Shown here one piece after another: positions 7,100-17,755 of a stretch of DNA of 43,601 nucleotides (position 1 is the stretch's first letter; every line of letters starts with the position of its first letter). The notes under the pieces were generated by a model that was given only the letters and a program-made list of their open reading frames with translations, had not been told where the DNA came from and ran no database searches. The DNA comes from a virus (lineage: Duplodnaviria; Heunggongvirae; Uroviricota; Caudoviricetes): IMG/VR virus record IMGVR_UViG_3300045988_013455, positions 1 through 43,601 of that record; one strand, 5' to 3'. The translations under genes and the position numbers were made by a program.

Positions 7100-7231
7100 T
7101 CATTCCAGCACCCACAGATAAATTGCTACTAACATGCCAAATACCGCGGCCATCATGCCGTATTGACCCTCGTGACAGTAGACACCGGCGGCAAATCCCG
7201 CCAGTACCGCGATAATCAGTTTACTTAGCAT
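7100..7231 (-). CDS. Small hydrophobic membrane protein (about 43 aa; not in ORF track, coordinates approximate)
   Basis: My own translation: MLSKLIIAVLAGFAAGVYCHEGQYGMMAAVFGMLVAIYLWVLE; start overlaps the polymerase 3' end. Confidence 0.3.
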   Translation of the reverse strand: MLSKLIIAVLAGFAAGVYCHEGQYGMMAAVFGMLVAIYLWVLE

Positions 7232-9434
7232 AACGCTTCATCTCCGCACCTTCCGCTACAAGAGGGAACCCCTCCGCCCATTCCGGCAATTCGCACATCA
7301 ACCGCTCAAGCTCTGCTACATTGTATTCCGGTAAATCTGGTGTCTCGCAGATAATCTCATCGTGAACATGAAGTACAATCGGGTAGCCGTTTGCTTCGAC
7401 GTTCAGCAGCGCGTTGGCCAGCAAATCACGGCACAACGCCTGAGTGCAGTTTTCCACCAGTTTACCAGAGTAGGTGTACTGGAGGCCCCACTGACGGGTT
7501 AACTGGTTTTCGCCCTGGTACTTGATGCGCACGTTAGTAGACACCTTTCCGTCTTCGTCGGTCTCTTTCGACACGCTCAATCCGACGCCTGGGTAAGACA
7601 TAACTCGACCAGACGGCAACGTCATCCGCAACCACCAACCGGCGACTTTGTTGCCGTTGTTATCTGTCTCTACGTTACGCGAAAACTTAACGCCTCGCGG
7701 CCCTGCGGTGAACTCTTTGCCTGGGTTGCGGATAGCTGCCATAGCCGCGTCTTCAATATCTCGCCAGAAAGCTACTGTTTCAGGGTGAGACTCCCGCCAC
7801 ATGCGCTTGATTGCATCACAGGTACGCCACACTTTTTTATCAAGAATATATGATGGTCGGTCATCCTTTTCACCCGGCCGCGGGGGTCGCTTGGCTTCCT
7901 GAATACGCGCCCACTCATATCCACGTGCGGTAGAAGCCCATATGTGGTCGGGGAATGTCCCGTCCATTGTTTTAGCCATATCAACAAGGTCGAGGCCGAG
8001 GTTCTTAGCAAACTGAACGAAAGCACCAACACCTCCTGCGTAGCCGAGGCCCAGTTCGCAGGCTTTACCAATCTGGCGTAAGTCTTTACGTTCCTTCTTA
8101 ATGTAATCCGGCTCCATGCCGAACATCTTACCTGCGGTTACGCAGTAAATATCCAGTCCAGCGCGGAACGTATCGAGCGCGGTTTCTTCACCAGCCAGCC
8201 ACGCAAGCCCCCGGCCTTCAACGTTCGAGTAATCGGCAACGACAAACTTATGCCCTGCTTCCGGTATGATGCAGCTACGAACCGTCGATGCCGTTAGCTT
8301 GGCTACATCGAAACGGCGGTGCGCGCGGCCCTTAAGTAACGCTGAAATACCTTTATCCAGTTCACCATCATGGTAGTACCCGCGCGCCAGGTTCTGTGGC
8401 TGGAACCCTTTACCCGCAAATCGCAATGTACGCTTGGCTCCACCGTACTGGATGCAACCGCGACGGCGGTCGTCCGACGAGCGTCCTAACAGCAGCGGGT
8501 TATATTTCGTTGACGCGGTAGACGCTGCCCCGAGTCGCATTTCGATAATCGTGCGTGCGTCGCCCGGTAAATCATCGTCTGCCAATAGGTCATTCAGCGT
8601 CGATTTCTGTGCGTTGTGGATACGGTGCGCAGGGGCCAGTTCACGCAGAATTGGAAGAAAGTCCTTTCCAGTAAGCGAGCCGCCGTATTTGCGCTGTGCT
8701 TCTTCCTGTAACTGTGCCTTGTGCTTCTCTACGGCTTCAATCGCGGCTTCCGCCAGCGCGACATCAACCTTAAACCCGCGGTCATTGATTAACTGGTCCA
8801 GCTCCAGTACACGGTCTTCGAACTCGGAGTTACCCCAACGCGGCAGCTTATGGAAGACTTCACGCATAGCAGTAATGTCGCTCACAGCGTACTTGATGAA
8901 CAGCGCCCACTCGTCAGGGTGAGTTTCTGCGGTGTAGCGGCGGATTTTGTAGTTCTTCGGCGTCGGTTTAGAGAAACGCTGAATCAGCGCCTTGCCGCGT
9001 TTATCTTTCGCGTTGTCAGCGGATACACCCAGCACTTCGCACAACGCATCGAGCGACCCTGGCAGCGCGTGACGGAACGCCCAAATCATCGTATCAATGG
9101 TGTTGTTTACCGGAATATCAAAGCCCCAGCAGTGCTTCATGATGAGGCGGTCGAACATTGAGCCATTGTGCCACACCATCTTAATGCGGCTGTTCGGCTT
9201 AACCAGACGACGCAGTGCGCGGTGTAAATCCCCCGGCATGTCGCTGCCGTCAGTGCAATCCCATACCTGTACAGGCTCGTCGTCAAAAGCATAGGTACAG
9301 ATAAGCACTTCGGTAGTTGGGTGTTCGGCGTAAGCGTAGGAACCGACTTTCTTTAAATCGATGCCGCTGTAGGTTTCAAAGTCTAGATAGAGTAATTCTG
9401 GCATGGTATTTTGACCCTTAATAAAAAGGCCCAA
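7221..9434 (-). CDS. DNA polymerase, family A, with N-terminal 3'-5' exonuclease domain
   Basis: LYLDFETYSG (Exo I), ADYSNVEGRGLAWLAGE (motif A-like), RQIGKACELGLGYAGG (motif B-like), VLHVHDEIICE (motif C). Confidence 0.9.
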   Translation of the reverse strand: MGLFIKGQNTMPELLYLDFETYSGIDLKKVGSYAYAEHPTTEVLICTYAFDDEPVQVWDCTDGSDMPGDLHRALRRLVKPNSRIKMVWHNGSMFDRLIMKHCWGFDIPVNNTIDTMIWAFRHALPGSLDALCEVLGVSADNAKDKRGKALIQRFSKPTPKNYKIRRYTAETHPDEWALFIKYAVSDITAMREVFHKLPRWGNSEFEDRVLELDQLINDRGFKVDVALAEAAIEAVEKHKAQLQEEAQRKYGGSLTGKDFLPILRELAPAHRIHNAQKSTLNDLLADDDLPGDARTIIEMRLGAASTASTKYNPLLLGRSSDDRRRGCIQYGGAKRTLRFAGKGFQPQNLARGYYHDGELDKGISALLKGRAHRRFDVAKLTASTVRSCIIPEAGHKFVVADYSNVEGRGLAWLAGEETALDTFRAGLDIYCVTAGKMFGMEPDYIKKERKDLRQIGKACELGLGYAGGVGAFVQFAKNLGLDLVDMAKTMDGTFPDHIWASTARGYEWARIQEAKRPPRPGEKDDRPSYILDKKVWRTCDAIKRMWRESHPETVAFWRDIEDAAMAAIRNPGKEFTAGPRGVKFSRNVETDNNGNKVAGWWLRMTLPSGRVMSYPGVGLSVSKETDEDGKVSTNVRIKYQGENQLTRQWGLQYTYSGKLVENCTQALCRDLLANALLNVEANGYPIVLHVHDEIICETPDLPEYNVAELERLMCELPEWAEGFPLVAEGAEMKRYAK

Positions 9435-9464: not shown

Positions 9465-10091
9465 TTAACGGCGGCGACGTTCGCGGCGCGGTGCTTCGTC
9501 TTCTTCGTCATCTTCCAGGTCGTCGACGCTTGCGGCGACTTTAGAACCGCCGAATGCTTTACCTTCGCCGACGTATTTAATCGCCAGCAGGTTAACGCCG
9601 AGTACTTTGTATTTCTGGCTGAACCAGATTTCAACGCTTACGTTAGCGACACAGCCGCTGTAAACCTGTTCGCCTTCAATCTGTTCCCCGTCTACGTTGA
9701 AGTCCTGTTCTACCTGAGTCTCACCCTTTTTAGAGGTTACAATCAGTGGCTGTTTCTGTGCCTTCGCTTTGAAGTAGAAGCCTTCCGGGAAGTCTTCAAA
9801 CGGATTGTCGCGCTCGGCGATGTCTTTAATCGCGCATTTATCCATGTGCTTACCTTCACCGTAGTTGGACTTCATCCACTTCTCGGCAGCGGCTGCACCT
9901 AACGCCTCTTCAACTACAGCGTAAACAGTGTCGTAGAGCGCATCGATTTGAGCATGGTCAGACGGCAGGATAATAGTCGCGCTGTACTGACCTTTAGTGA
10001 TTGAGCCATCATCGTTTTCACGGTCTTTTTCGCGTTCGAATACGTTAACCCAGGCAGTGTTTACTTTACGCAGATTTAATTTCAGTCCCAT
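9465..10091 (-). CDS. Single-stranded DNA-binding protein, T7 gp2.5 / DUF2815-like
   Basis: N-terminal KLNLRKVNTAWVNVFE, internal YSGCVANVS, acidic tail DDLEDDEEDE; recalled family resemblance, not searched. Confidence 0.55.
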   Translation of the reverse strand: MGLKLNLRKVNTAWVNVFEREKDRENDDGSITKGQYSATIILPSDHAQIDALYDTVYAVVEEALGAAAAEKWMKSNYGEGKHMDKCAIKDIAERDNPFEDFPEGFYFKAKAQKQPLIVTSKKGETQVEQDFNVDGEQIEGEQVYSGCVANVSVEIWFSQKYKVLGVNLLAIKYVGEGKAFGGSKVAASVDDLEDDEEDEAPRRERRRR

Positions 10092-10143: not shown

Positions 10144-10172
10144 ACTATAATAGCTAACTATTCAGGTGTCAA
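10144..10172 (-). promoter_or_regulatory. Sigma70-like promoter (TTGACA-17-TATAGT) upstream of SSB gene
   Basis: Minus strand reads TTGACAcctgaatagttagctatTATAGT; shares the AACTATTC motif with other promoters. Confidence 0.5.
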
Positions 10173-10405
10173 CCCTTCCAGCCAGTTATTTTCTCAACTA
10201 TAGTCAGATATACGTTAGGCCACTTCAAATTACGCACCCACTCAACTTCTTTGGCGTACACCAAATCCTCTAGCTCTATTTTCCTGCACTTGAACGCGGT
10301 ATACGCGAAAAACGGAAGAAGCATTATGACAAGCGGCAATATTAGCGCGTGATAAGTTAAAAACGCCACAAAACCGCCAATTACTCTGAACATTTTACGA
10401 ATCAT
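10169..10405 (-). CDS. Small membrane protein (start set at RBS-supported ATG; track ORF extends to 10468)
   Basis: GAGGAGGA RBS then ATG (MIRKMFRVIGGFVAFLTYHALILPLVIMLLPFF); hydrophobic segment. Confidence 0.5.
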   Translation of the reverse strand: MIRKMFRVIGGFVAFLTYHALILPLVIMLLPFFAYTAFKCRKIELEDLVYAKEVEWVRNLKWPNVYLTIVEKITGWKG

Positions 10406-11697
10406 TCTAAATCCTCCTCTGTTACCTGATTCCACTCGGGTCGTTTGTCGCCCGCCGTTGCAACACATGGTGCGCCCGGCTTACGGGTAATAAAGTCTTT
10501 CAGTTCATCTTCCGACACAACTTTAACCGCTTCGGTCGGCGTCATGAGCACTACCTTTTGCAGCATAGTACCGTACTTCGCGAATACCGCATCGGCATCT
10601 TTCCACGAACGATTACCAGGACGACCTTCAACCAGCTTGTACCCCGGCACTTTCTTACCGGAATGCAACGCGGTGGCCATAGCCTTTTCAACCTTGTCGA
10701 TGTGCTGGCGCAACAACGGCAACTTCTCATATTCAGCTACGAGTTGCTCTGGTGTCAGTTCCAGTGCCAAGTCGTCCTCCAGTTCTTCCTCCAGTACAGA
10801 ATTAACCGTCTTTGTACGCGCTGCGCACTGTTCAGAGAACCGACACCACTGGCATCCATCTACCGATGGCTTGAAGTCCGACGCTTTCAGGTTCTTCTTA
10901 CCGCGGAAATACGCATCAAGCGCCAACAGTGCACGTTTCTGTGCGAACTTAGCGAACAGTTCCAGACCTTCAACCGAGATGTCCCACTCTGACGCACCCC
11001 CAGCGTACGGCTGGAAGATGACCAGACGAACCATGGTGATGTTATAACGTCTCTTGAGTCGGCGATAAACACCAAGAGCGTAAAGCATAAGCTGCTTGTT
11101 TTCTTTCGCTTCGACACGATGCCGTCCTGTTTTAAGGTCGCCGATGATGAGCATCGCGGAGTTACTTTCACCTGTAAAGCCTTCTATAACCGCCACTAAG
11201 TCGGCTGTCCCGAATGTCTCTAAATCATCCTCCTTACCTTCTTCACTCTCAGCAGGTACTTTGTATCCCGGATGCAATACCTCAGTAAGATTGACGCGCA
11301 TTTCTAACTTTGCATAAGTCGCTACATCGATAATCGCTTTGCAGTAGTCGGTGTACTTGCGCACCTGCTCAATCATGTCCGCCGTAATCAGTACAGCACC
11401 TTTCATTTGGCGTATTAGCGCCTTAATCTGGCCTTTGCCCTCATCCAGCACGTAAGCACCGACTTCGCGCTCTAACGGCAACGCAGTGCCGCGTATATAG
11501 GCGTTGAGATGGACCTCAGCTATAGTGTGGCATGCTGTTCCTGTAACGGCGGATTTACCCGACGTGTTAGGAATGTCTTTTTCACACGCCAGTGACGCAG
11601 CACATGACAGCCACTTTTTAGCGCCCGACGGTGACAATAATGCGTGCACATCGTTATTACCGCCGCGTTCCTTTAAAATCATACCCTGCTCTCCCAC
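10402..11697 (-). CDS. PD-(D/E)XK exonuclease, RecB/Cas4-like with Fe-S cysteine cluster
   Basis: GTADLVAV...IGDLKTG...QLMLYAL nuclease core; N-terminal Cys plus C-terminal CQWCRFSEQC (CxxCx5C). Confidence 0.7.
   Translation of the reverse strand: MGEQGMILKERGGNNDVHALLSPSGAKKWLSCAASLACEKDIPNTSGKSAVTGTACHTIAEVHLNAYIRGTALPLEREVGAYVLDEGKGQIKALIRQMKGAVLITADMIEQVRKYTDYCKAIIDVATYAKLEMRVNLTEVLHPGYKVPAESEEGKEDDLETFGTADLVAVIEGFTGESNSAMLIIGDLKTGRHRVEAKENKQLMLYALGVYRRLKRRYNITMVRLVIFQPYAGGASEWDISVEGLELFAKFAQKRALLALDAYFRGKKNLKASDFKPSVDGCQWCRFSEQCAARTKTVNSVLEEELEDDLALELTPEQLVAEYEKLPLLRQHIDKVEKAMATALHSGKKVPGYKLVEGRPGNRSWKDADAVFAKYGTMLQKVVLMTPTEAVKVVSEDELKDFITRKPGAPCVATAGDKRPEWNQVTEEDLE
10403..10423. repeat. 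21-nt junction module tcattctaaatcctcctctgt (copy 1), identical to 13454..13474
   Basis: On the minus strand encodes TEEDLE-stop of the upstream gene plus GAGGAGGA RBS and ATG of the downstream gene. Confidence 0.85.
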
Positions 11698-12278: not shown

Positions 12279-12788
12279 TTATTCTTCTTCAAAATACTTG
12301 TTCTTGATTGCCGTCAGTCGCTCCAGATATTCGACCAGGTCTTCGTCCTTAATCGCAGCAATCTTCATCTTCTCGCCAGTGAACTCTTCCAGCAGTTCAT
12401 CAGAATCATCACACGCGGCATCGCTAGGGCCTTCGTTAATCGCATCATCGATAGCCTGAATCTGGTCACGAAGAGACTGGTAATCGACCTCTTCTTCCGG
12501 CTCTGGCGTTGGTTCCTCTACTTTAGCTTTCCGCGGCTTGCGTTTTGGTTTCTCTTCTTCTGCCGGTTTAGTGTCAACAAGGTCTTCACCTTCGACTGGG
12601 ATTTCTTTTGTTTCTTCTTTTACAACAGTAGGCGTGATTGTTGCAGTTTCTGCGACACCACTGTCGACGTCTTTACCATATGGCGCCGTGATAGCCTTCG
12701 GCAGTTCAGTACGGCGTGCACTGTTCGCAGCAATCAGTTCATGTGCAACTACGAAACGTTCCAGTAATTTTAAGAATTGGTCTAACAT
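12279..12788 (-). CDS. Acidic hypothetical protein (169 aa)
   Basis: RBS GAGGAGAGA upstream of ATG; highly acidic Glu/Asp-rich sequence. Confidence 0.5.
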   Translation of the reverse strand: MLDQFLKLLERFVVAHELIAANSARRTELPKAITAPYGKDVDSGVAETATITPTVVKEETKEIPVEGEDLVDTKPAEEEKPKRKPRKAKVEEPTPEPEEEVDYQSLRDQIQAIDDAINEGPSDAACDDSDELLEEFTGEKMKIAAIKDEDLVEYLERLTAIKNKYFEEE

Positions 12789-12819: not shown

Positions 12820-12849
12820 ACTATAATAGCTAACTATTCATGTTGTCAA
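12820..12849 (-). promoter_or_regulatory. Sigma70-like promoter (TTGACA-18-TATAGT) for the 12788 gene
   Basis: Minus strand TTGACAacatgaatagttagctatTATAGT; leader contains AAACGAGAGGAG. Confidence 0.5.
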
Positions 12850-12913: not shown

Positions 12914-13129
12914 ATGCAACCATCTGAACTAGGCATCCGTGTAGAACAACGCCGCAAAGAACTCGGCCTCTCTCAGCGCCGTCTGGCGGTCCTGGCTGGC
13001 GTTTCCCAGGGCGCAATTAACCAGCTGGCACTTGGGGTAACTCAGGACGTCCGCCCGGCAACGCTGTTTAAACTGGCGGAAGTGCTGCAAGTAGACGCCA
13101 AGTGGCTGGCGTTCGGTGAAGGGGCTTAA
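12914..13129 (+). CDS. XRE-family (Cro/CI-type) helix-turn-helix transcriptional regulator
   Basis: RRKELGLSQRRLAVLAGVSQGAINQLALG is a typical HTH_3 signature; lone plus-strand gene with own terminator. Confidence 0.7.
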   Translation: MQPSELGIRVEQRRKELGLSQRRLAVLAGVSQGAINQLALGVTQDVRPATLFKLAEVLQVDAKWLAFGEGA

Positions 13130-13146
13130 CGCCCCTTTCTTTTTAT
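13119..13146 (+). terminator. Rho-independent terminator after XRE regulator gene
   Basis: GGGGC-ttaac-GCCCC followed by TTTCTTTTT. Confidence 0.7.
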
Positions 13147-13457
13147 CGCAAATTATCAAGTTCTTCCAAGTTCTTAATCATGCGCTGCACGTTCAGGTAT
13201 TGGAGTAAAGCCAAAGGATACACACTTACCGGGAAGCTGATTACAATCGCCAATCCAAAAACCAATGTATAGATAGCTTCGATAATCTCCCCCAGTGTCA
13301 TATCTAAAACGTCTTTAAACCTCCCAACACGCCCCGCCGCCCATCTACAAAAAGCCCACCAGTTGTTTGCTACACAAGAAACACATGTCAGGTAAGACGG
13401 GCGGTAGCCCGCGTACACCGCTTTACTTGGGTCATTGATGAAGTCGTAAATATTCAT
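13143..13457 (-). CDS. Hypothetical protein with C-terminal hydrophobic segment (104 aa)
   Basis: Same GAGGAGGA-N7-ATG junction module as at 10405; TLVFGLAIVISFPVSVYPLALL. Confidence 0.5.
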   Translation of the reverse strand: MNIYDFINDPSKAVYAGYRPSYLTCVSCVANNWWAFCRWAAGRVGRFKDVLDMTLGEIIEAIYTLVFGLAIVISFPVSVYPLALLQYLNVQRMIKNLEELDNLR

Positions 13458-13474
13458 TCTAAATCCTCCTCTGT
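13454..13474. repeat. 21-nt junction module (copy 2), identical to 10403..10423
   Basis: Exact 21/21 identity; encodes TEEDLE-stop of the primase-helicase and RBS+ATG of the next gene. Confidence 0.85.
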
Positions 13475-15724
13475 CACTGTCAGCATTTCATTCGGTTCGT
13501 ATAATGTCTTCGGAATCTTGTTGTCGTTTATACCCCACGGCAACCGGTATTGCTTAGGTATAGGTCTGTTGTTGTTATCCAGACCCGAGACGATAACCCT
13601 GGCCTCGTGCATCTCTTCCAGTTTCTTTCGAAGGTCGTTATTAGCGTTAATCGGTACGCCGTAACTATCTTCTTTCGCCGCTTTGACGATAGCGGACATG
13701 GAGAACCCTCGCTTGTCGTCGCCCTGCTCCTGCAATTTACCCAATGCGTAAATAACCGTAGCCTCTTTGGGATCCAGTTTCTCGAACTGGCCTACCTTTT
13801 CTTTAACGGCCGCTTTACCTTCTTTCGTCAACCCTTCTTCCCGCTCTTTCTCCTCGTCAGTCTTGAACGGCTCGAAGCCCCACGGCATCAGTACAAGCGC
13901 CTTGTGTGGTTCTGGCAGGTCCAGGTTTACGATTGTGCCGTATTCCTCTGTGTTACCCAGGAACTCAACCGCACGGTACTCTTTCGGCGGCGGGGCTTCA
14001 CGGAACTGTACAGATTCCAGCACCATACCAACCGTCTTCTGTTGAGGCCCGTGCTTAAATTTAGAGTGGTATACATTTATCTGACGGTCGGTTGCGCGTT
14101 CAATTGTCAGTTCCACATCGACGCCTGCGTACAGAGCGCCACTACCACGGGCTTTCTTTCCGCCCTTCGGCGTATGGTGAACGACGCCCACCGCGGCTTT
14201 GGTTGCGTCGCGTACTTCTTTCAGGATGGCGATAACTTTACCCATGCCAATTGCCGTCGATGAACTGTTCTCGTCGAACTTATCAATCGTCAGGGCCAGC
14301 GTCTGGTTAAGGGTGTCGAACGCAACCATGCCAATAGGCTCGTCGCCCGCAGTTTCGCGCATTAACTTAATCAGGCTTTTCAGTTTGCCGACTTCGCCCA
14401 TATCGATGACATGTACATAATCTTTACCCTCTGCACCGTATTTAGCCGCGAGCGCGTCAATACGTGTACGTGTGGCTGCGCCACCCTCACCGTCGATATA
14501 GAAATGGTGGCAACGCTGGGTGTCCGCCCCTGCAAACCGGTATCCGGCGGCGCTAAGGTACATCATCCCAAGCGTATAAAACGATTTGTACGTGCCAGAT
14601 TCACCGACGATATCCCAGATACAATCCGACGGCATGTACCCTTCTACGACGAAATCAGCCTTTACCGGTTCCGGTAACTCGTCCTCCTCTGAATCCTCGC
14701 CGTCTTCCAGGTCGTCGAGACTGCATGAGACAGATTCCCGCACGCCCCACCCGATAGCCTCAGCGACTTCACTGAACGGCAGCCCGGTTGCATTGCACGC
14801 GTACTTCCACACCTCTTTCGGCGACATGCCTTCGGTTGCCATAATGTCGGTGTCGTGAATCATGGTTACGTTAGGCGCTTCGTAGCCCTCACGCGGGAAG
14901 CACAGCAGGAAGTCGTCCGACCGTGGTGTCGGGTCGCTGTAGTTCTCTGCATGTTCCGGTGTAGCCGGCATTTTAAGCCCGCGGGGTGTCATGATACCGC
15001 CGTACTCAAACGCCAGTGCCTCGAACGCATCAGTAAACGCTGTGCGCAGTTCTTCCGGTATCTGGTAATCCGACGCGCTGCTCACCTCGTAATCCGGGAT
15101 GCCCTCCAGTAACTCGTCCGGGTCAATCAGGTCGTTGCGGCGAGACCAGATAACGGTAGAGCCAACCGGCGGCAGGTACATAGGCTGGGACAGGGTAAAA
15201 CCGCTGCGGTCCGCGCCCATGCCTTTGAAGAAATGCTCCAGCAATCCATGACGAACTCGGATGATGTCACCACCTTCAACCGGGCGACCCAGCGGCATAA
15301 CGACGCGAAAGCGCGGGGACTCGTCGGTATGTGATGCCGTGGTATAGAGGCACATGGCCTGACGGCTGCGCTTAACCCGGCGCACCGCTTCCTGATACTC
15401 TTCCGGTGTTGCACTGTCGAAATCCAGATACGCCAGCGACGATTTGCTTACAGACGCGTCACAACGATAGAAAAATCCTTTACGCGCTTGCTTAAAGTCA
15501 CCGGTTTCCGGGTCTTTTACGGTGCTGTGCGTTGAGTCGCACGCGGCGGTAATATAGCCGGGCGCTGTCTTAGGGTTAATTCCGTCGCGAACGGCATCGA
15601 GCGGCTGAATTAACTCTTTCAGGTCGTCCAGTGTTGCCGTGTGTGTGGTTCTGACGTTTATATCCTTTTTCTCCGCCCGCGCGTTGCGACGAGACCACGA
15701 GTAGGATAAAATTACATCGGACAT
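13454..15724 (-). CDS. Bifunctional primase-polymerase (PrimPol-like N-terminus) fused to RecA-fold helicase/ATPase
   Basis: N-terminal LAYLDFD, TTASHTD, RFRVVMPL; central GESGTYKS (Walker A), MVAFDTL (Walker B), VVHHTPKGG. Confidence 0.7.
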   Translation of the reverse strand: MSDVILSYSWSRRNARAEKKDINVRTTHTATLDDLKELIQPLDAVRDGINPKTAPGYITAACDSTHSTVKDPETGDFKQARKGFFYRCDASVSKSSLAYLDFDSATPEEYQEAVRRVKRSRQAMCLYTTASHTDESPRFRVVMPLGRPVEGGDIIRVRHGLLEHFFKGMGADRSGFTLSQPMYLPPVGSTVIWSRRNDLIDPDELLEGIPDYEVSSASDYQIPEELRTAFTDAFEALAFEYGGIMTPRGLKMPATPEHAENYSDPTPRSDDFLLCFPREGYEAPNVTMIHDTDIMATEGMSPKEVWKYACNATGLPFSEVAEAIGWGVRESVSCSLDDLEDGEDSEEDELPEPVKADFVVEGYMPSDCIWDIVGESGTYKSFYTLGMMYLSAAGYRFAGADTQRCHHFYIDGEGGAATRTRIDALAAKYGAEGKDYVHVIDMGEVGKLKSLIKLMRETAGDEPIGMVAFDTLNQTLALTIDKFDENSSSTAIGMGKVIAILKEVRDATKAAVGVVHHTPKGGKKARGSGALYAGVDVELTIERATDRQINVYHSKFKHGPQQKTVGMVLESVQFREAPPPKEYRAVEFLGNTEEYGTIVNLDLPEPHKALVLMPWGFEPFKTDEEKEREEGLTKEGKAAVKEKVGQFEKLDPKEATVIYALGKLQEQGDDKRGFSMSAIVKAAKEDSYGVPINANNDLRKKLEEMHEARVIVSGLDNNNRPIPKQYRLPWGINDNKIPKTLYEPNEMLTVTEEDLE

Positions 15725-15782
15725 GTTGTATTTCCTTCAGCAAGTAATTTGGCCTCGGCGTTCACCGCGTCGGGGCTTTCTT

Positions 15783-16016
15783 TTATTCCAGGTCTTCTAA
15801 AGTGGCTGTCATTCCGCGAACTTCAGCAATGGCACTATATTTCCCACCAACATTTTTCACGACATCAGATTTAACCAGCACCTTCAACGACCCCTCAATA
15901 ATGGCGGAACTATAGTACTTAAAATAACTACGGCGCAAGTCCATAACGCTGCACGACCCTTTTTTACGTGTCAACGAAACTACCGCCGTAAATACACGCG
16001 ACTGGAACTCGGTCAT
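15783..16016 (-). CDS. Hypothetical protein (77 aa), ends LEDLE
   Basis: ORF in early leftward operon; ATGA overlap with upstream small HTH gene. Confidence 0.45.
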   Translation of the reverse strand: MTEFQSRVFTAVVSLTRKKGSCSVMDLRRSYFKYYSSAIIEGSLKVLVKSDVVKNVGGKYSAIAEVRGMTATLEDLE

Positions 16017-16183
16017 TTCACGTTCTCCTTAATCCACGCTTCCACTTTCTCCGGGTCAAACGTACCTGGCTGCCGGCGCCCCATAATGCGGATGCAACAA
16101 TCCGGGAACTTCCCACTCTTTAACCAGTTATTCAGCGTGCGACGAGTAACCCCGATGCGCTCAGCTACCTCATTCTGTGTCAT
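16013..16183 (-). CDS. AlpA-like small HTH DNA-binding protein (about 56 aa; not in ORF track)
   Basis: My own translation: MTQNEVAERIGVTRRTLNNWLKSGKFPDCC...; first gene after leftward early promoter. Confidence 0.5.
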   Translation of the reverse strand: MTQNEVAERIGVTRRTLNNWLKSGKFPDCCIRIMGRRQPGTFDPEKVEAWIKENVK

Positions 16184-16215
16184 TCTCAAACCCTCATTAT
16201 CAGTTAACGAAACCG

Positions 16216-16677: not shown

Positions 16678-16884
16678 GTGATGGTTATGTTTAAGAAAGG
16701 TCAGTTGGCGAAAACGAAACGCACCGGACAATATGTATTAGTGTTGCAGGACGAGAACGAGTATGACGAGGATAATCTGGTTGACGTATGGGGCCTGGTA
16801 AGAAAGAAACCCGGGTTCGCCTACCGGGATAATTTAACACTAATAGGCAACAATTTTAAATTAAAAGGGGTGAGATATGAGTAA
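16678..16884 (+). CDS. Hypothetical early protein (68 aa)
   Basis: RBS GAGGAG upstream; first gene after the rightward early promoter. Confidence 0.45.
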   Translation: MMVMFKKGQLAKTKRTGQYVLVLQDENEYDEDNLVDVWGLVRKKPGFAYRDNLTLIGNNFKLKGVRYE

Positions 16885-17080
16885 GTGGATTAAGTGTAGT
16901 GAGATGCTGCCGGGCAATGGGTATGCTGATAAGGAGTTCCTGGTGTATGAAACGTTGAATAACGCCGTTCAGCACGATTATTACATAGTTCCTGATGACG
17001 GAAGAAAGCCTTTCTGGAATCACTACGATAAGTACGTAACGCACTGGATGCCCTTACCTGAGCCACCGGCGCCGGTGTAA
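16877..17080 (+). CDS. DUF551-like phage protein (67 aa)
   Basis: MSKWIKCSEMLP ... THWMPLPEPP, the recalled DUF551 signature; paralog of 17570..17755. Confidence 0.55.
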   Translation: MSKWIKCSEMLPGNGYADKEFLVYETLNNAVQHDYYIVPDDGRKPFWNHYDKYVTHWMPLPEPPAPV

Positions 17081-17569: not shown

Positions 17570-17755
17570 ATGGGTGAGTGGATTAAGTGTAGTGAGCGGA
17601 TGCCGGAGCCTTATGAATACGTTCTTGTAACTGATTGTTTTGTTGGCTGTGAGGTTATGCGTGTTAATTCAGATGGCTACTGGGGGCCTGCAAAGAGTTT
17701 ATATCACGGTGATATAACGCACTGGATGCCGTTACCTGAGCCCCCGGAAGTGTGA
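17570..17755 (+). CDS. DUF551-like phage protein (61 aa), second copy
   Basis: MGEWIKCSERMP ... ITHWMPLPEPPEV. Confidence 0.55.
   Translation: MGEWIKCSERMPEPYEYVLVTDCFVGCEVMRVNSDGYWGPAKSLYHGDITHWMPLPEPPEV

What the first reader, a model, noticed from the sequence alone, without database searches (positions are those of the whole stretch)
10403..10423. Duplicated 21-nt translational-coupling module creating TEEDLE C-termini
The identical sequence tcattctaaatcctcctctgt occurs at 10403..10423 and 13454..13474. On the minus strand it encodes the last six codons (T-E-E-D-L-E-stop) of the Cas4-like nuclease and of the primase-helicase, and simultaneously the GAGGAGGA Shine-Dalgarno and ATG of the next gene. 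A third protein (15783..16016) also ends LEDLE via a different nucleotide sequence. This suggests either a recombination-spread junction module or selection for a shared acidic C-terminal tag.
Basis: seen in the sequence. Interest (0 to 1): 0.4.

Follow-up and report, generated by a model that had tools for sequence, protein, structure and literature searches.

The report
Shared acidic tail on phage replication proteins
The duplicated 21 bases are real: they encode a conserved acidic end-piece (…T-E-E-D-L-E) carried by several unrelated DNA-replication proteins of this coliphage, probably a common docking tag, and in this genome the same bases also act as the ribosome-binding site of small accessory genes inserted just downstream.

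Summary
The repeat is real. The first copy lies at 10402..10422, one base off the reported position; the second is at 13454..13474.

On the minus strand both copies read T-E-E-D-L-E-stop. They end the DUF2800/Cas4-like nuclease and the helicase-primase of a Kagunavirus-like phage. Each carries AGGAGG, a 7-nt spacer and an ATGA start for a small downstream gene.

The peptide is not a by-product of the ribosome site:
- Relatives keep TEEDLE or SEEDLE when the gene ends at a terminator or promoter, and then use non-SD codons (GAA GAA) and TAA/TAG stops.
- Across a wider clade with nuclease identity down to about 44%, 60/61 nuclease tails and 49/49 helicase-primase tails keep D-L within the last six residues.
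- A winged-helix protein, the SSB tail and the helicase-primase linker carry the same motif.
- Tails from the same genome resemble each other more than tails from different genomes (P=0.0004 and 0.0024), without shared codons outside Kagunavirus.

The 21-mer is not mobile. All 26 IMG/VR hits lie at these two gene ends, and no downstream gene is shared between the two sites.

Best reading: a shared acidic docking motif, analogous to the T7 gp4 and gp2.5 tails. Its partner is unknown, and its codons have been co-opted as SD/start for inserted genes.

The parts
10402..10422 (-). Repeat copy 1. Last six codons plus stop of the DUF2800 nuclease (T-E-E-D-L-E-TGA). It also holds the AGGAGG SD and the ATG (10405..10403) of the downstream 78-aa gene.
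13454..13474 (-). Repeat copy 2. Last six codons plus stop of the helicase-primase (T-E-E-D-L-E-TGA). It also holds the AGGAGG SD and the ATG (13457..13455) of the downstream 104-aa gene.
10402..11697 (-). DUF2800 / PD-(D/E)XK (Cas4-like, four conserved Cys) nuclease. The Pfam domain ends at residue 420 of 431, and the tail NQVTEEDLE lies beyond it.
13454..15724 (-). Replicative helicase-primase (AAA_25 RecA-like core at residues 352-522; phrog_3228) ending in VTEEDLE.
14705..14722 (-). Internal copy of the motif (S-L-D-D-L-E) just upstream of the AAA_25 helicase core (residues 352-522), read here as the primase-helicase linker. D338 and L339 are invariant among Kagunavirus and Jerseyvirus homologs.
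15783..16016 (-). 77-aa winged-helix protein (phrog_5169, unknown function). Residues 1-64 are folded (pLDDT above 90). Residues 65-77 form a low-confidence (pLDDT <50) tail ending T-L-E-D-L-E (15803..15786), encoded by different codons.
9465..10091 (-). gp2.5-like SSB (PF10991, Enc34 type). After the region aligned to the PF10991 domain (residues 5-198, which includes the motif) it carries S-V-D-D-L-E (9530..9513), then an acidic run, then a basic RRERRRR end.
10169..10405 (-). 78-aa hydrophobic accessory ORF whose ATG overlaps the nuclease stop. It is one of at least 7 alternative downstream genes at this junction in relatives.
13143..13457 (-). 104-aa accessory ORF (phrog_2638, unknown function) whose ATG overlaps the helicase-primase stop. 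It is one of at least 5 alternative downstream genes, and many relatives have a terminator hairpin here instead.
10144..10172 (-). Sigma-70-like promoter (TTGACA-17-TATAGT) ahead of the SSB gene. In relatives that lack the 78-aa gene it follows the nuclease TAA stop directly.

Best explanation
The 21 bases encode a short linear motif, roughly [S/T]-[D/E]-x-D-L-[D/E] at or near the C-terminus. Unrelated replication and recombination proteins of this phage clade share it: the DUF2800 nuclease, the helicase-primase, a small winged-helix protein, the tail of the gp2.5-like SSB, and the helicase-primase linker.

The most likely function (inferred) is a flexible acidic docking peptide. It would bring these proteins to one common phage-encoded partner, as the acidic C-terminal tails of T7 gp4 and gp2.5 bind basic patches on the T7 polymerase. 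The family-A polymerase is the favoured partner. The SSB DNA-binding cleft is the alternative.

The nucleotide identity within this genome has two layers (shown):
- The same peptide is required at both gene ends.
- Both gene ends are followed here by an inserted accessory gene that uses the tail codons as its Shine-Dalgarno sequence and an ATGA stop/start overlap. This fixes GAG GAG GA…GAA TGA.
For: Shown:
1. The peptide is kept without any coupled downstream gene. There are 30 distinct uncoupled helicase-primase contexts (TAG or TAA plus a terminator hairpin) with many synonymous variants. About 20 uncoupled nuclease contexts mostly read AGT GAA GAA GAT TTR GAA TAA (15 of 22; most of the rest are Jerseyvirus-type EDDLEA variants) and those SEEDLE forms are followed by a promoter.
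2. SD codons track coupling. Twelve of 13 coupled Kagunavirus helicase-primase ends, and nearly all coupled nuclease ends, read GAGGAGGATTTRGAATGA.
3. Conservation is deep. 60/61 unique nuclease tails and 49/49 helicase-primase tails have D-L within the last 6 residues, and position -2 is acidic in 96-98%. The helicase-primase residues just upstream are highly variable.
4. All 17 full-length 50%-identity representative nucleases with 33% identity or more (P0272-P0291) end in …DL(x0-3).
5. The same motif on other proteins:
- The winged-helix protein ends ATLEDLE in Kagunavirus and ATPEDLE in Jerseyvirus, on a low-confidence (pLDDT <50, probably flexible) tail.
- SSB alleles whose OB fold is only 46-63% identical keep …DLEDD…, and one allele has the motif doubled.
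- Exactly 5 six-frame matches to the motif exist in the window, all in these four genes, against a shuffle mean of 0.72.
6. Co-variation is seen. Cognate nuclease/SSB tails over 9 lineages give P=0.0004. Cognate nuclease/helicase-primase flanks over 13 lineages give P=0.0024. This occurs without codon sharing outside Kagunavirus.
7. In distant duf2800-gp2.5-polA modules the nuclease tail copies the SSB tail: Staphylococcus phage P240 AEDDFD, 611R5 DFDD[VI]S, Chi-like W-D-[DE]-E…EV, and MA12 …DDD[DE]L.
8. In the ten lineages inspected the polymerase never carries the tail.

From the literature: T7 gp4 acidic tails bind basic patches on gp5 (PMC12593628). gp2.5 and DUF2815 SSBs have acidic tails that interact with the polymerase and the helicase (PMC5686142).
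Against: - No binding partner was identified, and no interaction was tested. Complex prediction was not possible with these tools.
- The motif lacks the C-terminal aromatic residue that is critical in T7 gp2.5 and gp4 and in E. coli SSB.
- The co-variation tests use few lineages, which are not phylogenetically independent.
- The motif regular expression was derived after seeing the data.
- The nuclease structure model failed (pLDDT 38.9), so disorder of its tail rests only on where the Pfam domain ends.
- Within Kagunavirus, gene conversion between the two tail-coding segments cannot be excluded.
Confidence: 0.7

Rival explanations
1. RBS-driven coincidence. The amino acids T-E-E-D-L-E are only what you get when a strong SD (GAGGAGGA), an A/T-rich spacer and an ATGA overlap are written into the end of an upstream gene. 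On this view the peptide has no function of its own.
For: - In this window both copies do serve as SD plus start for downstream ORFs.
- They are 2 of only 4 ORF starts in the genome preceded by a perfect AGGAGG.
- Coupled junctions almost always use GAGGAGGA…GAATGA.
Against: - The peptide persists in dozens of contexts with no downstream gene, with non-SD codons (GAA GAA, AGT) and TAA/TAG stops.
- The winged-helix protein has the tail with different codons and a 58-nt gap before the next gene.
- D-L is present in 109 of 110 unique tails across a clade with nuclease identity down to about 44%.
Confidence: 0.04
2. Mobile or recombination-spread junction module. The 21-mer is a DNA-level linker copied between gene boundaries by recombination or gene conversion. 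It acts as a portable expression cassette or crossover point for swapping accessory genes.
For: - Both junctions are mosaic hot spots. At least 7 unrelated gene families follow the nuclease end and at least 5 follow the helicase-primase end, and every one starts exactly at the ATGA.
- Within Kagunavirus the two tails use almost the same codons.
Against: - All 26 exact matches among 2.9 million IMG/VR contigs lie at these two gene ends only.
- No homology was found between cargo genes at the two sites.
- No third copy exists in the window, even allowing 3 mismatches.
- Outside Kagunavirus, same-residue positions use different codons. Overall 38/78 are identical, and in Dhillonvirus 1 of 5.
- The motif also occurs internally and on the SSB, where no junction exists.
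Confidence: 0.1
3. Independent autoinhibitory acidic tails. Each tail folds back onto its own protein's DNA-binding surface as a DNA mimic, as the gp2.5 tail does on its own cleft. The tails would then be similar only because all are acidic, not because they share one partner.
For: - Acidic tails are common in this nuclease family. 119 of 145 representatives are net acidic in the last 12 residues, and D+E is 31% there against 15% overall.
- The literature on gp2.5 and Enc34 ORF6 describes tail-to-cleft contacts (PMC5686142).
Against: - Conservation goes beyond charge. D-L is present in 109 of 110 unique tails, and S/T is preferred at position -3.
- The identical motif sits on four different folds.
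- Cognate tails are more alike than non-cognate acidic tails.
Confidence: 0.12
4. RNA-level regulatory operator. The repeated 21 nt would be the binding site of a translational repressor, in the style of RegA, or a structured element that co-regulates the two downstream genes.
For: Two identical RBS regions in one genome.
Against: - Relatives vary at synonymous positions while keeping the peptide.
- The downstream genes are non-homologous and often absent.
- No fold or structure evidence was sought beyond this.
Confidence: 0.02

Closest known systems
Acidic C-terminal tails of bacteriophage T7 gp4 (helicase-primase) and gp2.5 (SSB) that dock on the gp5 polymerase
   Same: - Short acidic peptides at the extreme C-terminus of different replication proteins of one phage, shared between helicase-primase and SSB.
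- Both are replication modules built around a family-A polymerase with a gp2.5-type SSB.
- The tail lies outside the folded domain.
   Different: - The motif core is D-L followed by 0-3 residues (…TEEDLE), not a terminal aromatic Phe.
- It is also carried by a Cas4-like nuclease and a winged-helix protein.
- In this SSB it is followed by an acidic run and a basic RRERRRR end.
- The binding partner is untested.
Bacterial SSB C-terminal tip (SSB-Ct, DDDIPF) interaction hub
   Same: [quoted passage not shown]
   Different: In SSB-Ct one protein (SSB) carries the tag and many partners carry the pocket. Here many proteins carry the tag. The sequence also differs, with no I-P-F.
duf2800-gp2.5-polA phage replication/recombination module (PMC8093625; Enc34 ORF6 SSB, PMC5686142)
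   Same: The window encodes exactly this module: DUF2800 nuclease, PF10991 SSB and a family-A polymerase in a row.
   Different: The papers found describe the gene context and the acidic tail of the SSB. In the held library, a search for TEEDLE/VTEEDLE found no paper containing those strings, and two term searches for papers on phage nuclease and SSB tails returned none, judging from titles and abstract openings, about a nuclease or helicase-primase sharing the SSB-type tail.
Translationally coupled ATGA stop/start overlaps with the SD inside the upstream gene
   Same: The geometry is classic: AGGAGG, a 7-nt spacer, and an ATG overlapping the TGA. Four-base overlaps are common elsewhere in this genome.
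   Different: Here the SD codons are at the same time under selection as a conserved peptide motif. The same junction serves a changing set of accessory genes.

Membership tests
T7-type acidic C-terminal replisome docking tails | Located at the extreme C-terminus of replication proteins | tested here: met
   The nuclease, helicase-primase and winged-helix protein all end in [TL]EDLE followed by a stop.
T7-type acidic C-terminal replisome docking tails | Net acidic, flexible segment outside the folded domain | tested here: met
   The winged-helix protein tail (residues 65-77) has pLDDT below 50 next to a domain above 90. The DUF2800 profile ends at residue 420 of 431. The linker upstream of the helicase-primase motif is hypervariable. 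The nuclease model itself failed.
T7-type acidic C-terminal replisome docking tails | Same tail type shared by SSB and helicase-primase of one phage | tested here: met
   The SSB has SVDDLED and the helicase-primase has VTEEDLE and SLDDLED. Cognate similarity gives P=0.0004 and P=0.0024.
T7-type acidic C-terminal replisome docking tails | C-terminal aromatic residue (Phe) required for function (own knowledge of T7 gp2.5 and gp4) | tested here: not met
   The tails end in Glu, and the only hydrophobic residue is Leu at position -2.
T7-type acidic C-terminal replisome docking tails | Binds basic patches of the phage DNA polymerase | not testable with these tools
   No complex prediction or binding assay was available. 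The polymerase is favoured only by analogy and because it never carries the tail.
Bacterial SSB-Ct motif | Terminal D-D-D-I-P-F-type tip | tested here: not met
   The tail sequence is TEEDLE, and the SSB ends in RRERRRR.
Translational coupling junction | Downstream start overlaps the upstream stop, with an SD 5-10 nt upstream inside the upstream gene | tested here: met
   ATGA overlap, with AGGAGG followed by a 7-nt spacer, at both sites.
Translational coupling junction | Translation of the downstream gene depends on translation of the upstream gene | not testable with these tools
   This needs reporter fusions or ribosome profiling.
Mobile junction / boundary-sequence recombination module | Same DNA element at several different kinds of gene junction or in unrelated genomes | tested here: not met
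   All 26 exact IMG/VR matches are at nuclease (17) or helicase-primase (9) 3' ends of Kagunavirus-like contigs.
Mobile junction / boundary-sequence recombination module | Cargo genes exchanged between copies of the element | tested here: not met
   No BLASTP homology was found between downstream genes of the two sites.
Mobile junction / boundary-sequence recombination module | DNA-level identity exceeding what the protein constraint explains | tested here: inconclusive
   Within Kagunavirus 5 of 6 codons are identical, but the SD/ATGA constraint explains most of that. Outside Kagunavirus there is no codon sharing.

The most novel reading that the evidence does not exclude
The duf2800-gp2.5-polA replication modules may use a lineage-specific, co-evolving 'tail code'. 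Any protein that must work at the fork or at recombination intermediates would acquire the same short acidic C-terminal peptide as the cognate SSB and so be recruited to a single phage-encoded hub. Proteins seen with such a tail are the nuclease, helicase-primase, SNF2-like helicase, winged-helix DNA binder and, in some lineages, even the small terminase. In Kagunaviruses the codons for this tag double as a ready-made strong RBS, which turns the two gene ends into landing pads where new accessory genes are expressed on arrival.
Probability: 0.35. Interest if true: 0.6.

Novelty: new variant of a known kind. Interest (0 to 1): 0.42.

Why it matters
If the motif is a docking tag, three things follow.
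- It gives a simple sequence handle for mapping the replisome and recombination interaction network of a very large group of phages: Guernseyvirinae, Dhillonvirus, Chi-like phages and many prophage-type duf2800-gp2.5-polA modules. Their replication has not been studied biochemically.
- It suggests that the Cas4-like nuclease and a small winged-helix protein are physically tied to the replisome.
- It predicts which unannotated proteins belong to the machinery, namely those that carry the lineage's tail.

It is also a clean example of codons under double selection, for a peptide motif and for the SD/start of the next gene. It shows how core-gene ends become insertion points for accessory genes.

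Tried and rejected
- An AlphaFold2 model of the nuclease from a shallow alignment (all sequences at least 88% identical) failed (mean pLDDT 38.9). It says nothing about the tail.
- A Foldseek search with the winged-helix protein gave only generic winged-helix matches. The best was the T4 MotA activation domain at E=7e-3, and nothing reached E=1e-3. No specific function could be assigned.
- The search for homologous proteins returned almost only close relatives for all three proteins. Distant comparisons had to come from IMG/VR loci, GenBank phage records and the 50%-identity library.
- The literature searches for the motif, for Kagunavirus and Guernseyvirinae, for DUF2800 with DUF2815, and for nuclease and SSB tails found the T7 and Enc34 background. 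The TEEDLE/VTEEDLE search found no paper containing those strings, and none of the listed papers, judging from titles and abstract openings, concerns this motif or a nuclease sharing the SSB tail.
- I looked for downstream genes shared between the two junctions and found none.
- I looked for a third copy of the repeat in the window, allowing up to 3 mismatches, and for copies at other junctions in IMG/VR. There were none.
- I considered a beta-clamp-binding motif (QL[SD]LF), the host SSB-Ct and a C-terminal degron. I rejected them on sequence, and because phage lineages infecting the same hosts use different tails, which points to a phage-encoded partner. This last step is inference.
- The promoter and terminator scans gave counts near the shuffle expectation. 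I used only the two 11-of-12 promoters and the hairpins that are conserved in relatives.
Full report
**What the window is.** An 8-kb stretch around the finding matches 460 phage records. The best are Escherichia phages of the Kagunavirus type (Guernseyvirinae) at 88-91% nucleotide identity, followed by Salmonella Jersey-type phages.

The minus strand carries a replication and recombination block:
- an HTH_17 protein (16013..16189);
- a 77-aa protein (15783..16016, phrog_5169);
- the helicase-primase (13454..15724; AAA_25, phrog_3228);
- a 104-aa ORF (13143..13457);
- a new operon from a TTGACA-18-TATAGT promoter (12849..12820), containing an acidic 169-aa protein, a NinX-like protein and a 90-aa protein;
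- the DUF2800/PD-(D/E)XK nuclease (10402..11697);
- a 78-aa hydrophobic ORF (10169..10405);
- a TTGACA-17-TATAGT promoter (10172..10144);
- a gp2.5-like SSB (9465..10091, PF10991);
- a terminator, then a family-A DNA polymerase (7221..9434).

This is the duf2800-gp2.5-polA module named in PMC8093625.

**The observation.** The 21-mer occurs exactly twice, at 10402..10422 and 13454..13474. The first coordinate in the finding is one base off. None of 100 shuffles gave a match at up to 3 mismatches.

On the minus strand both copies read ACA GAG GAG GAT TTA GAA TGA. That is T-E-E-D-L-E-stop, with an ATG overlapping the TGA and AGGAGG 7 nt upstream of it. Both are preceded by a Val codon, so 23 of 24 nt and seven residues (VTEEDLE) are shared.

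The 77-aa protein ends TATLEDLE with other codons. A 58-nt spacer separates it from the next gene.

Only these three of 410 six-frame ORFs end in [DE]L[DE]. In an unbiased comparison of all 24,976 pairs of ORF C-termini, the helicase-primase/nuclease pair ranks second, behind a pair of true paralogs.

**Is the peptide a by-product of the ribosome site?** No. I collected about 120 related loci from IMG/VR and GenBank.

In phage Bas73 the helicase-primase ends GTG ACA GAG GAG GAT TTG GAA TAG and runs straight into a terminator hairpin. There is no downstream gene, yet the peptide is VTEEDLE.

Across unique contexts:
- 15 helicase-primase ends are coupled to a downstream ORF, and all 15 end in GAATGA.
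- 30 helicase-primase ends are uncoupled. They end in TAG or TAA, and they carry many synonymous variants (GAGGAA, GAAGAG, ACC/ACT/ACG, terminal GAG). Nearly all still encode TEEDLE, or TEGDLE in Jerseyvirus.
- Coupled nuclease ends read ACAGAGGAGGATTTRGAATGA.
- Most uncoupled nuclease ends read AGT GAA GAA GAT TTR GAA TAA (SEEDLE, no SD-like codons) and are followed directly by the SSB promoter.

So two layers of selection are visible. The peptide is always kept. The SD-like codon choice and the TGA stop appear when a gene sits downstream. In this window both ends are of the coupled type, which is why all 21 bases coincide.

**Is it a mobile junction module?** No. An exact scan of 2.9 million IMG/VR contigs for ACAGAGGAGGATTTRGAATGA found 26 sites. 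All are at the 3' end of the nuclease (17) or of the helicase-primase (9) in Kagunavirus-like contigs.

The two junctions are clearly hot spots for accessory genes. At least 7 unrelated families follow the nuclease and at least 5 follow the helicase-primase, and each starts at the ATGA. No family occurs at both sites.

Outside Kagunavirus, positions with the same residue in the two tails use the same codon no more often than chance. Overall 38 of 78 are identical. In Dhillonvirus the codons are GCC ACT GAC GAG GAC TTA against GCG ACC GAT GAC GAC CTG. Gene conversion is therefore not needed to explain the similarity. Within Kagunavirus alone it cannot be excluded.

**How far the motif goes.**
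- In Cornellvirus (Shemara), Dhillonvirus (TheodorHerzl) and several metagenomic lineages, nuclease identity falls to 44-56%. Both proteins still end in an acidic …[S/T/A]-[D/E]-x-D-L-(x0-3): Shemara ATDSDLED and SEEDDLEN, Dhillonvirus ATDEDLSNE and ATDDDLKD, L092 SDEDLS and SDEDLNS, L089 …DLSD and …DLSD.
- 60 of 61 unique nuclease tails and 49 of 49 helicase-primase tails have D-L within the last six residues. Position -2 is acidic in 96-98%. The ten residues upstream in the helicase-primase show 7-10 residue types per column, so this is a conserved island behind a variable linker.
- In the 50%-identity representative library, all 17 full-length nucleases with 33% identity or more (P0272-P0291) end this way.
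- The winged-helix protein keeps ATLEDLE in Kagunavirus and ATPEDLE in Jerseyvirus. Its AlphaFold model has a confident winged-helix domain (residues 1-64, pLDDT above 90) and a 13-residue tail with pLDDT below 50.
- The SSB carries the motif near the end of the region aligned to PF10991 (profile match runs to residue 198): SVDDLED here, ATDSDLDD in Shemara and ATDDDLDD in L123. SSB alleles whose OB fold is only 46-63% identical still keep …DLEDD…APRRERRRR, and one allele has it doubled as DDLEDDLEDD.
- The helicase-primase has a second copy (SLDDLED) just upstream of its AAA_25 helicase core, which I read as the primase-helicase linker. D338 and L339 are invariant in the Kagunavirus/Jerseyvirus alignment.
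- A post-hoc pattern, [STA]x[DEGS]DL[DE], matches five times in all six frames of the window. All five are in these four genes. The shuffle mean is 0.72.

**Co-variation and more distant modules.** In more remote duf2800-gp2.5-polA modules the D-L motif is replaced, but the nuclease tail again resembles the tail of its own SSB:
- 611R5: DFDDVS…ADLI and DFDDIS…EALI.
- Chi-like phage 37: …GAWDDEDDDEV and …DAWDEDEDWEDEV, plus the SNF2-like helicase …VWDDEE and the small terminase …DEVDDDEV.
- Pectobacterium MA12: …DNMDDDL, …TDDEDDL, …SDDDEL and, on the small terminase, …NDDEEL.
- Staphylococcus phage P240: …SAEDDFDKL and …SAAEDDFDEL….

Over nine lineages, cognate nuclease/SSB tail similarity exceeds permuted pairings (214 against 170.9 ± 13.3, P=0.0004). 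Within the D-L clade, the residues flanking D-L are more alike between the nuclease and helicase-primase of the same genome than between genomes (159 against 110 ± 17, P=0.0024, 13 lineages). These tests use few lineages that are not fully independent, so they are supportive rather than conclusive.

DUF2800 nucleases in general have acidic ends. 119 of 145 representatives are net acidic over the last 12 residues, and D+E is 31% there against 15% overall. In the ten lineages inspected, the polymerase never carries the tail.

**Mechanism.**

Shown:
- A conserved C-terminal acidic-hydrophobic motif is shared by unrelated replication and recombination proteins.
- It sits on a flexible tail in the one case that could be modelled.
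- Its codons have a dual use as SD and start in this genome.

Inferred: the motif is a docking peptide for one phage-encoded partner. The closest precedent is T7. [quoted passage not shown] The acidic tail of gp2.5, and of DUF2815 SSBs such as Enc34 ORF6, mediates contacts with the polymerase and the helicase, and with the SSB's own cleft (PMC5686142).

By analogy and by elimination the polymerase is the favoured partner. The SSB cleft is the alternative.

Phage lineages that infect the same hosts use different tails. This argues for a phage partner rather than a host partner, but it is inference.

**Comparison and novelty.** The principle of acidic tails as replisome handles is well known.

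What differs here:
- The motif itself has a D-L core with no terminal aromatic residue, so one defining T7 and SSB-Ct feature is not met.
- It is present on a Cas4-like nuclease and a winged-helix protein.
- In the SSB it is internal and followed by a basic end.
- More generally, the DUF2800 nuclease copies the tail of its cognate SSB.

In the held library, the search for TEEDLE/VTEEDLE found no paper containing those strings, and two term searches for papers on phage nuclease and SSB tails returned none, judging from titles and abstract openings, about such sharing. I rate it a new variant of a known kind and moderately interesting. The function remains untested.

**What led nowhere.**
- The nuclease structure model failed.
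- The structure search for the winged-helix protein was generic.
- The promoter and terminator scans were near background apart from the two strong promoters.

Noticed in passing
window 16877..17080 (+) and 17570..17755 (+): Two small paralogous ORFs (67 and 61 aa) both start M..WIKCSE and end HWMPLPEPPxxV. They were the top-scoring C-terminus pair in the whole window. In one related record the gene next to the nuclease is annotated as DUF551-domain.
   Followed up: no
window 12279..12788 (-): A very acidic 169-aa protein (phrog_3127, unknown function, no Pfam match) has its own conserved acidic-aromatic end: NKYFEEE here, GKYYEIEE in Shemara and ETYFELED in TheodorHerzl. It may be a second tail motif or a DNA mimic.
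   Followed up: partly
window 15751..15777: A G+C-rich hairpin with 11 pairs lies in the 58-nt gap between the winged-helix gene and the helicase-primase start. It scores as a terminator only on the + strand, opposite to the operon. It is conserved in Kagunavirus relatives and has a counterpart in Jerseyvirus. Its role is unknown.
   Followed up: no
window 9465..9530 (-) and SSB genes in L004, L013, L017: The gp2.5-like SSB ends in an unusual acidic-then-basic tail (…DDLEDDEEDEAPRRERRRR). The basic end is kept across the whole clade. One allele (L004) has the DDLE unit duplicated, and some Kagunaviruses carry an OB fold only 46-63% identical with the same tail.
   Followed up: partly
L045 10823..11272 (Salmonella phage 37) and L127 13308..13883 (Pectobacterium phage MA12): In these Casjensviridae the annotated small terminase ends with the same acidic tail type as the nuclease, SSB and helicase of that phage (…DEVDDDEV and …NDDEEL). 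This hints at a link between the replication/recombination hub and packaging.
   Followed up: no
window 12914..13129 (+) and hairpin 13118..13138: A Cro/CI-like HTH ORF (71 aa) lies on the opposite strand, convergent with the helicase-primase operon, and ends at a hairpin. In relatives that lack the 104-aa gene, the helicase-primase stop abuts this hairpin.
   Followed up: partly
Junctions after the nuclease and helicase-primase in L001-L088: Both core-gene ends are insertion hot spots. At least 12 unrelated small accessory gene families occur there, several of them hydrophobic or membrane-like, and each begins exactly at the ATGA overlap.
   Followed up: partly
L013, L024 polymerase genes: The polymerase match is split into two pieces about 880 nt apart in some relatives, and related records annotate HNH endonucleases in this region. 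This suggests an intervening homing-endonuclease or intron-like insertion in the polymerase gene of those phages, which this window lacks.
   Followed up: no
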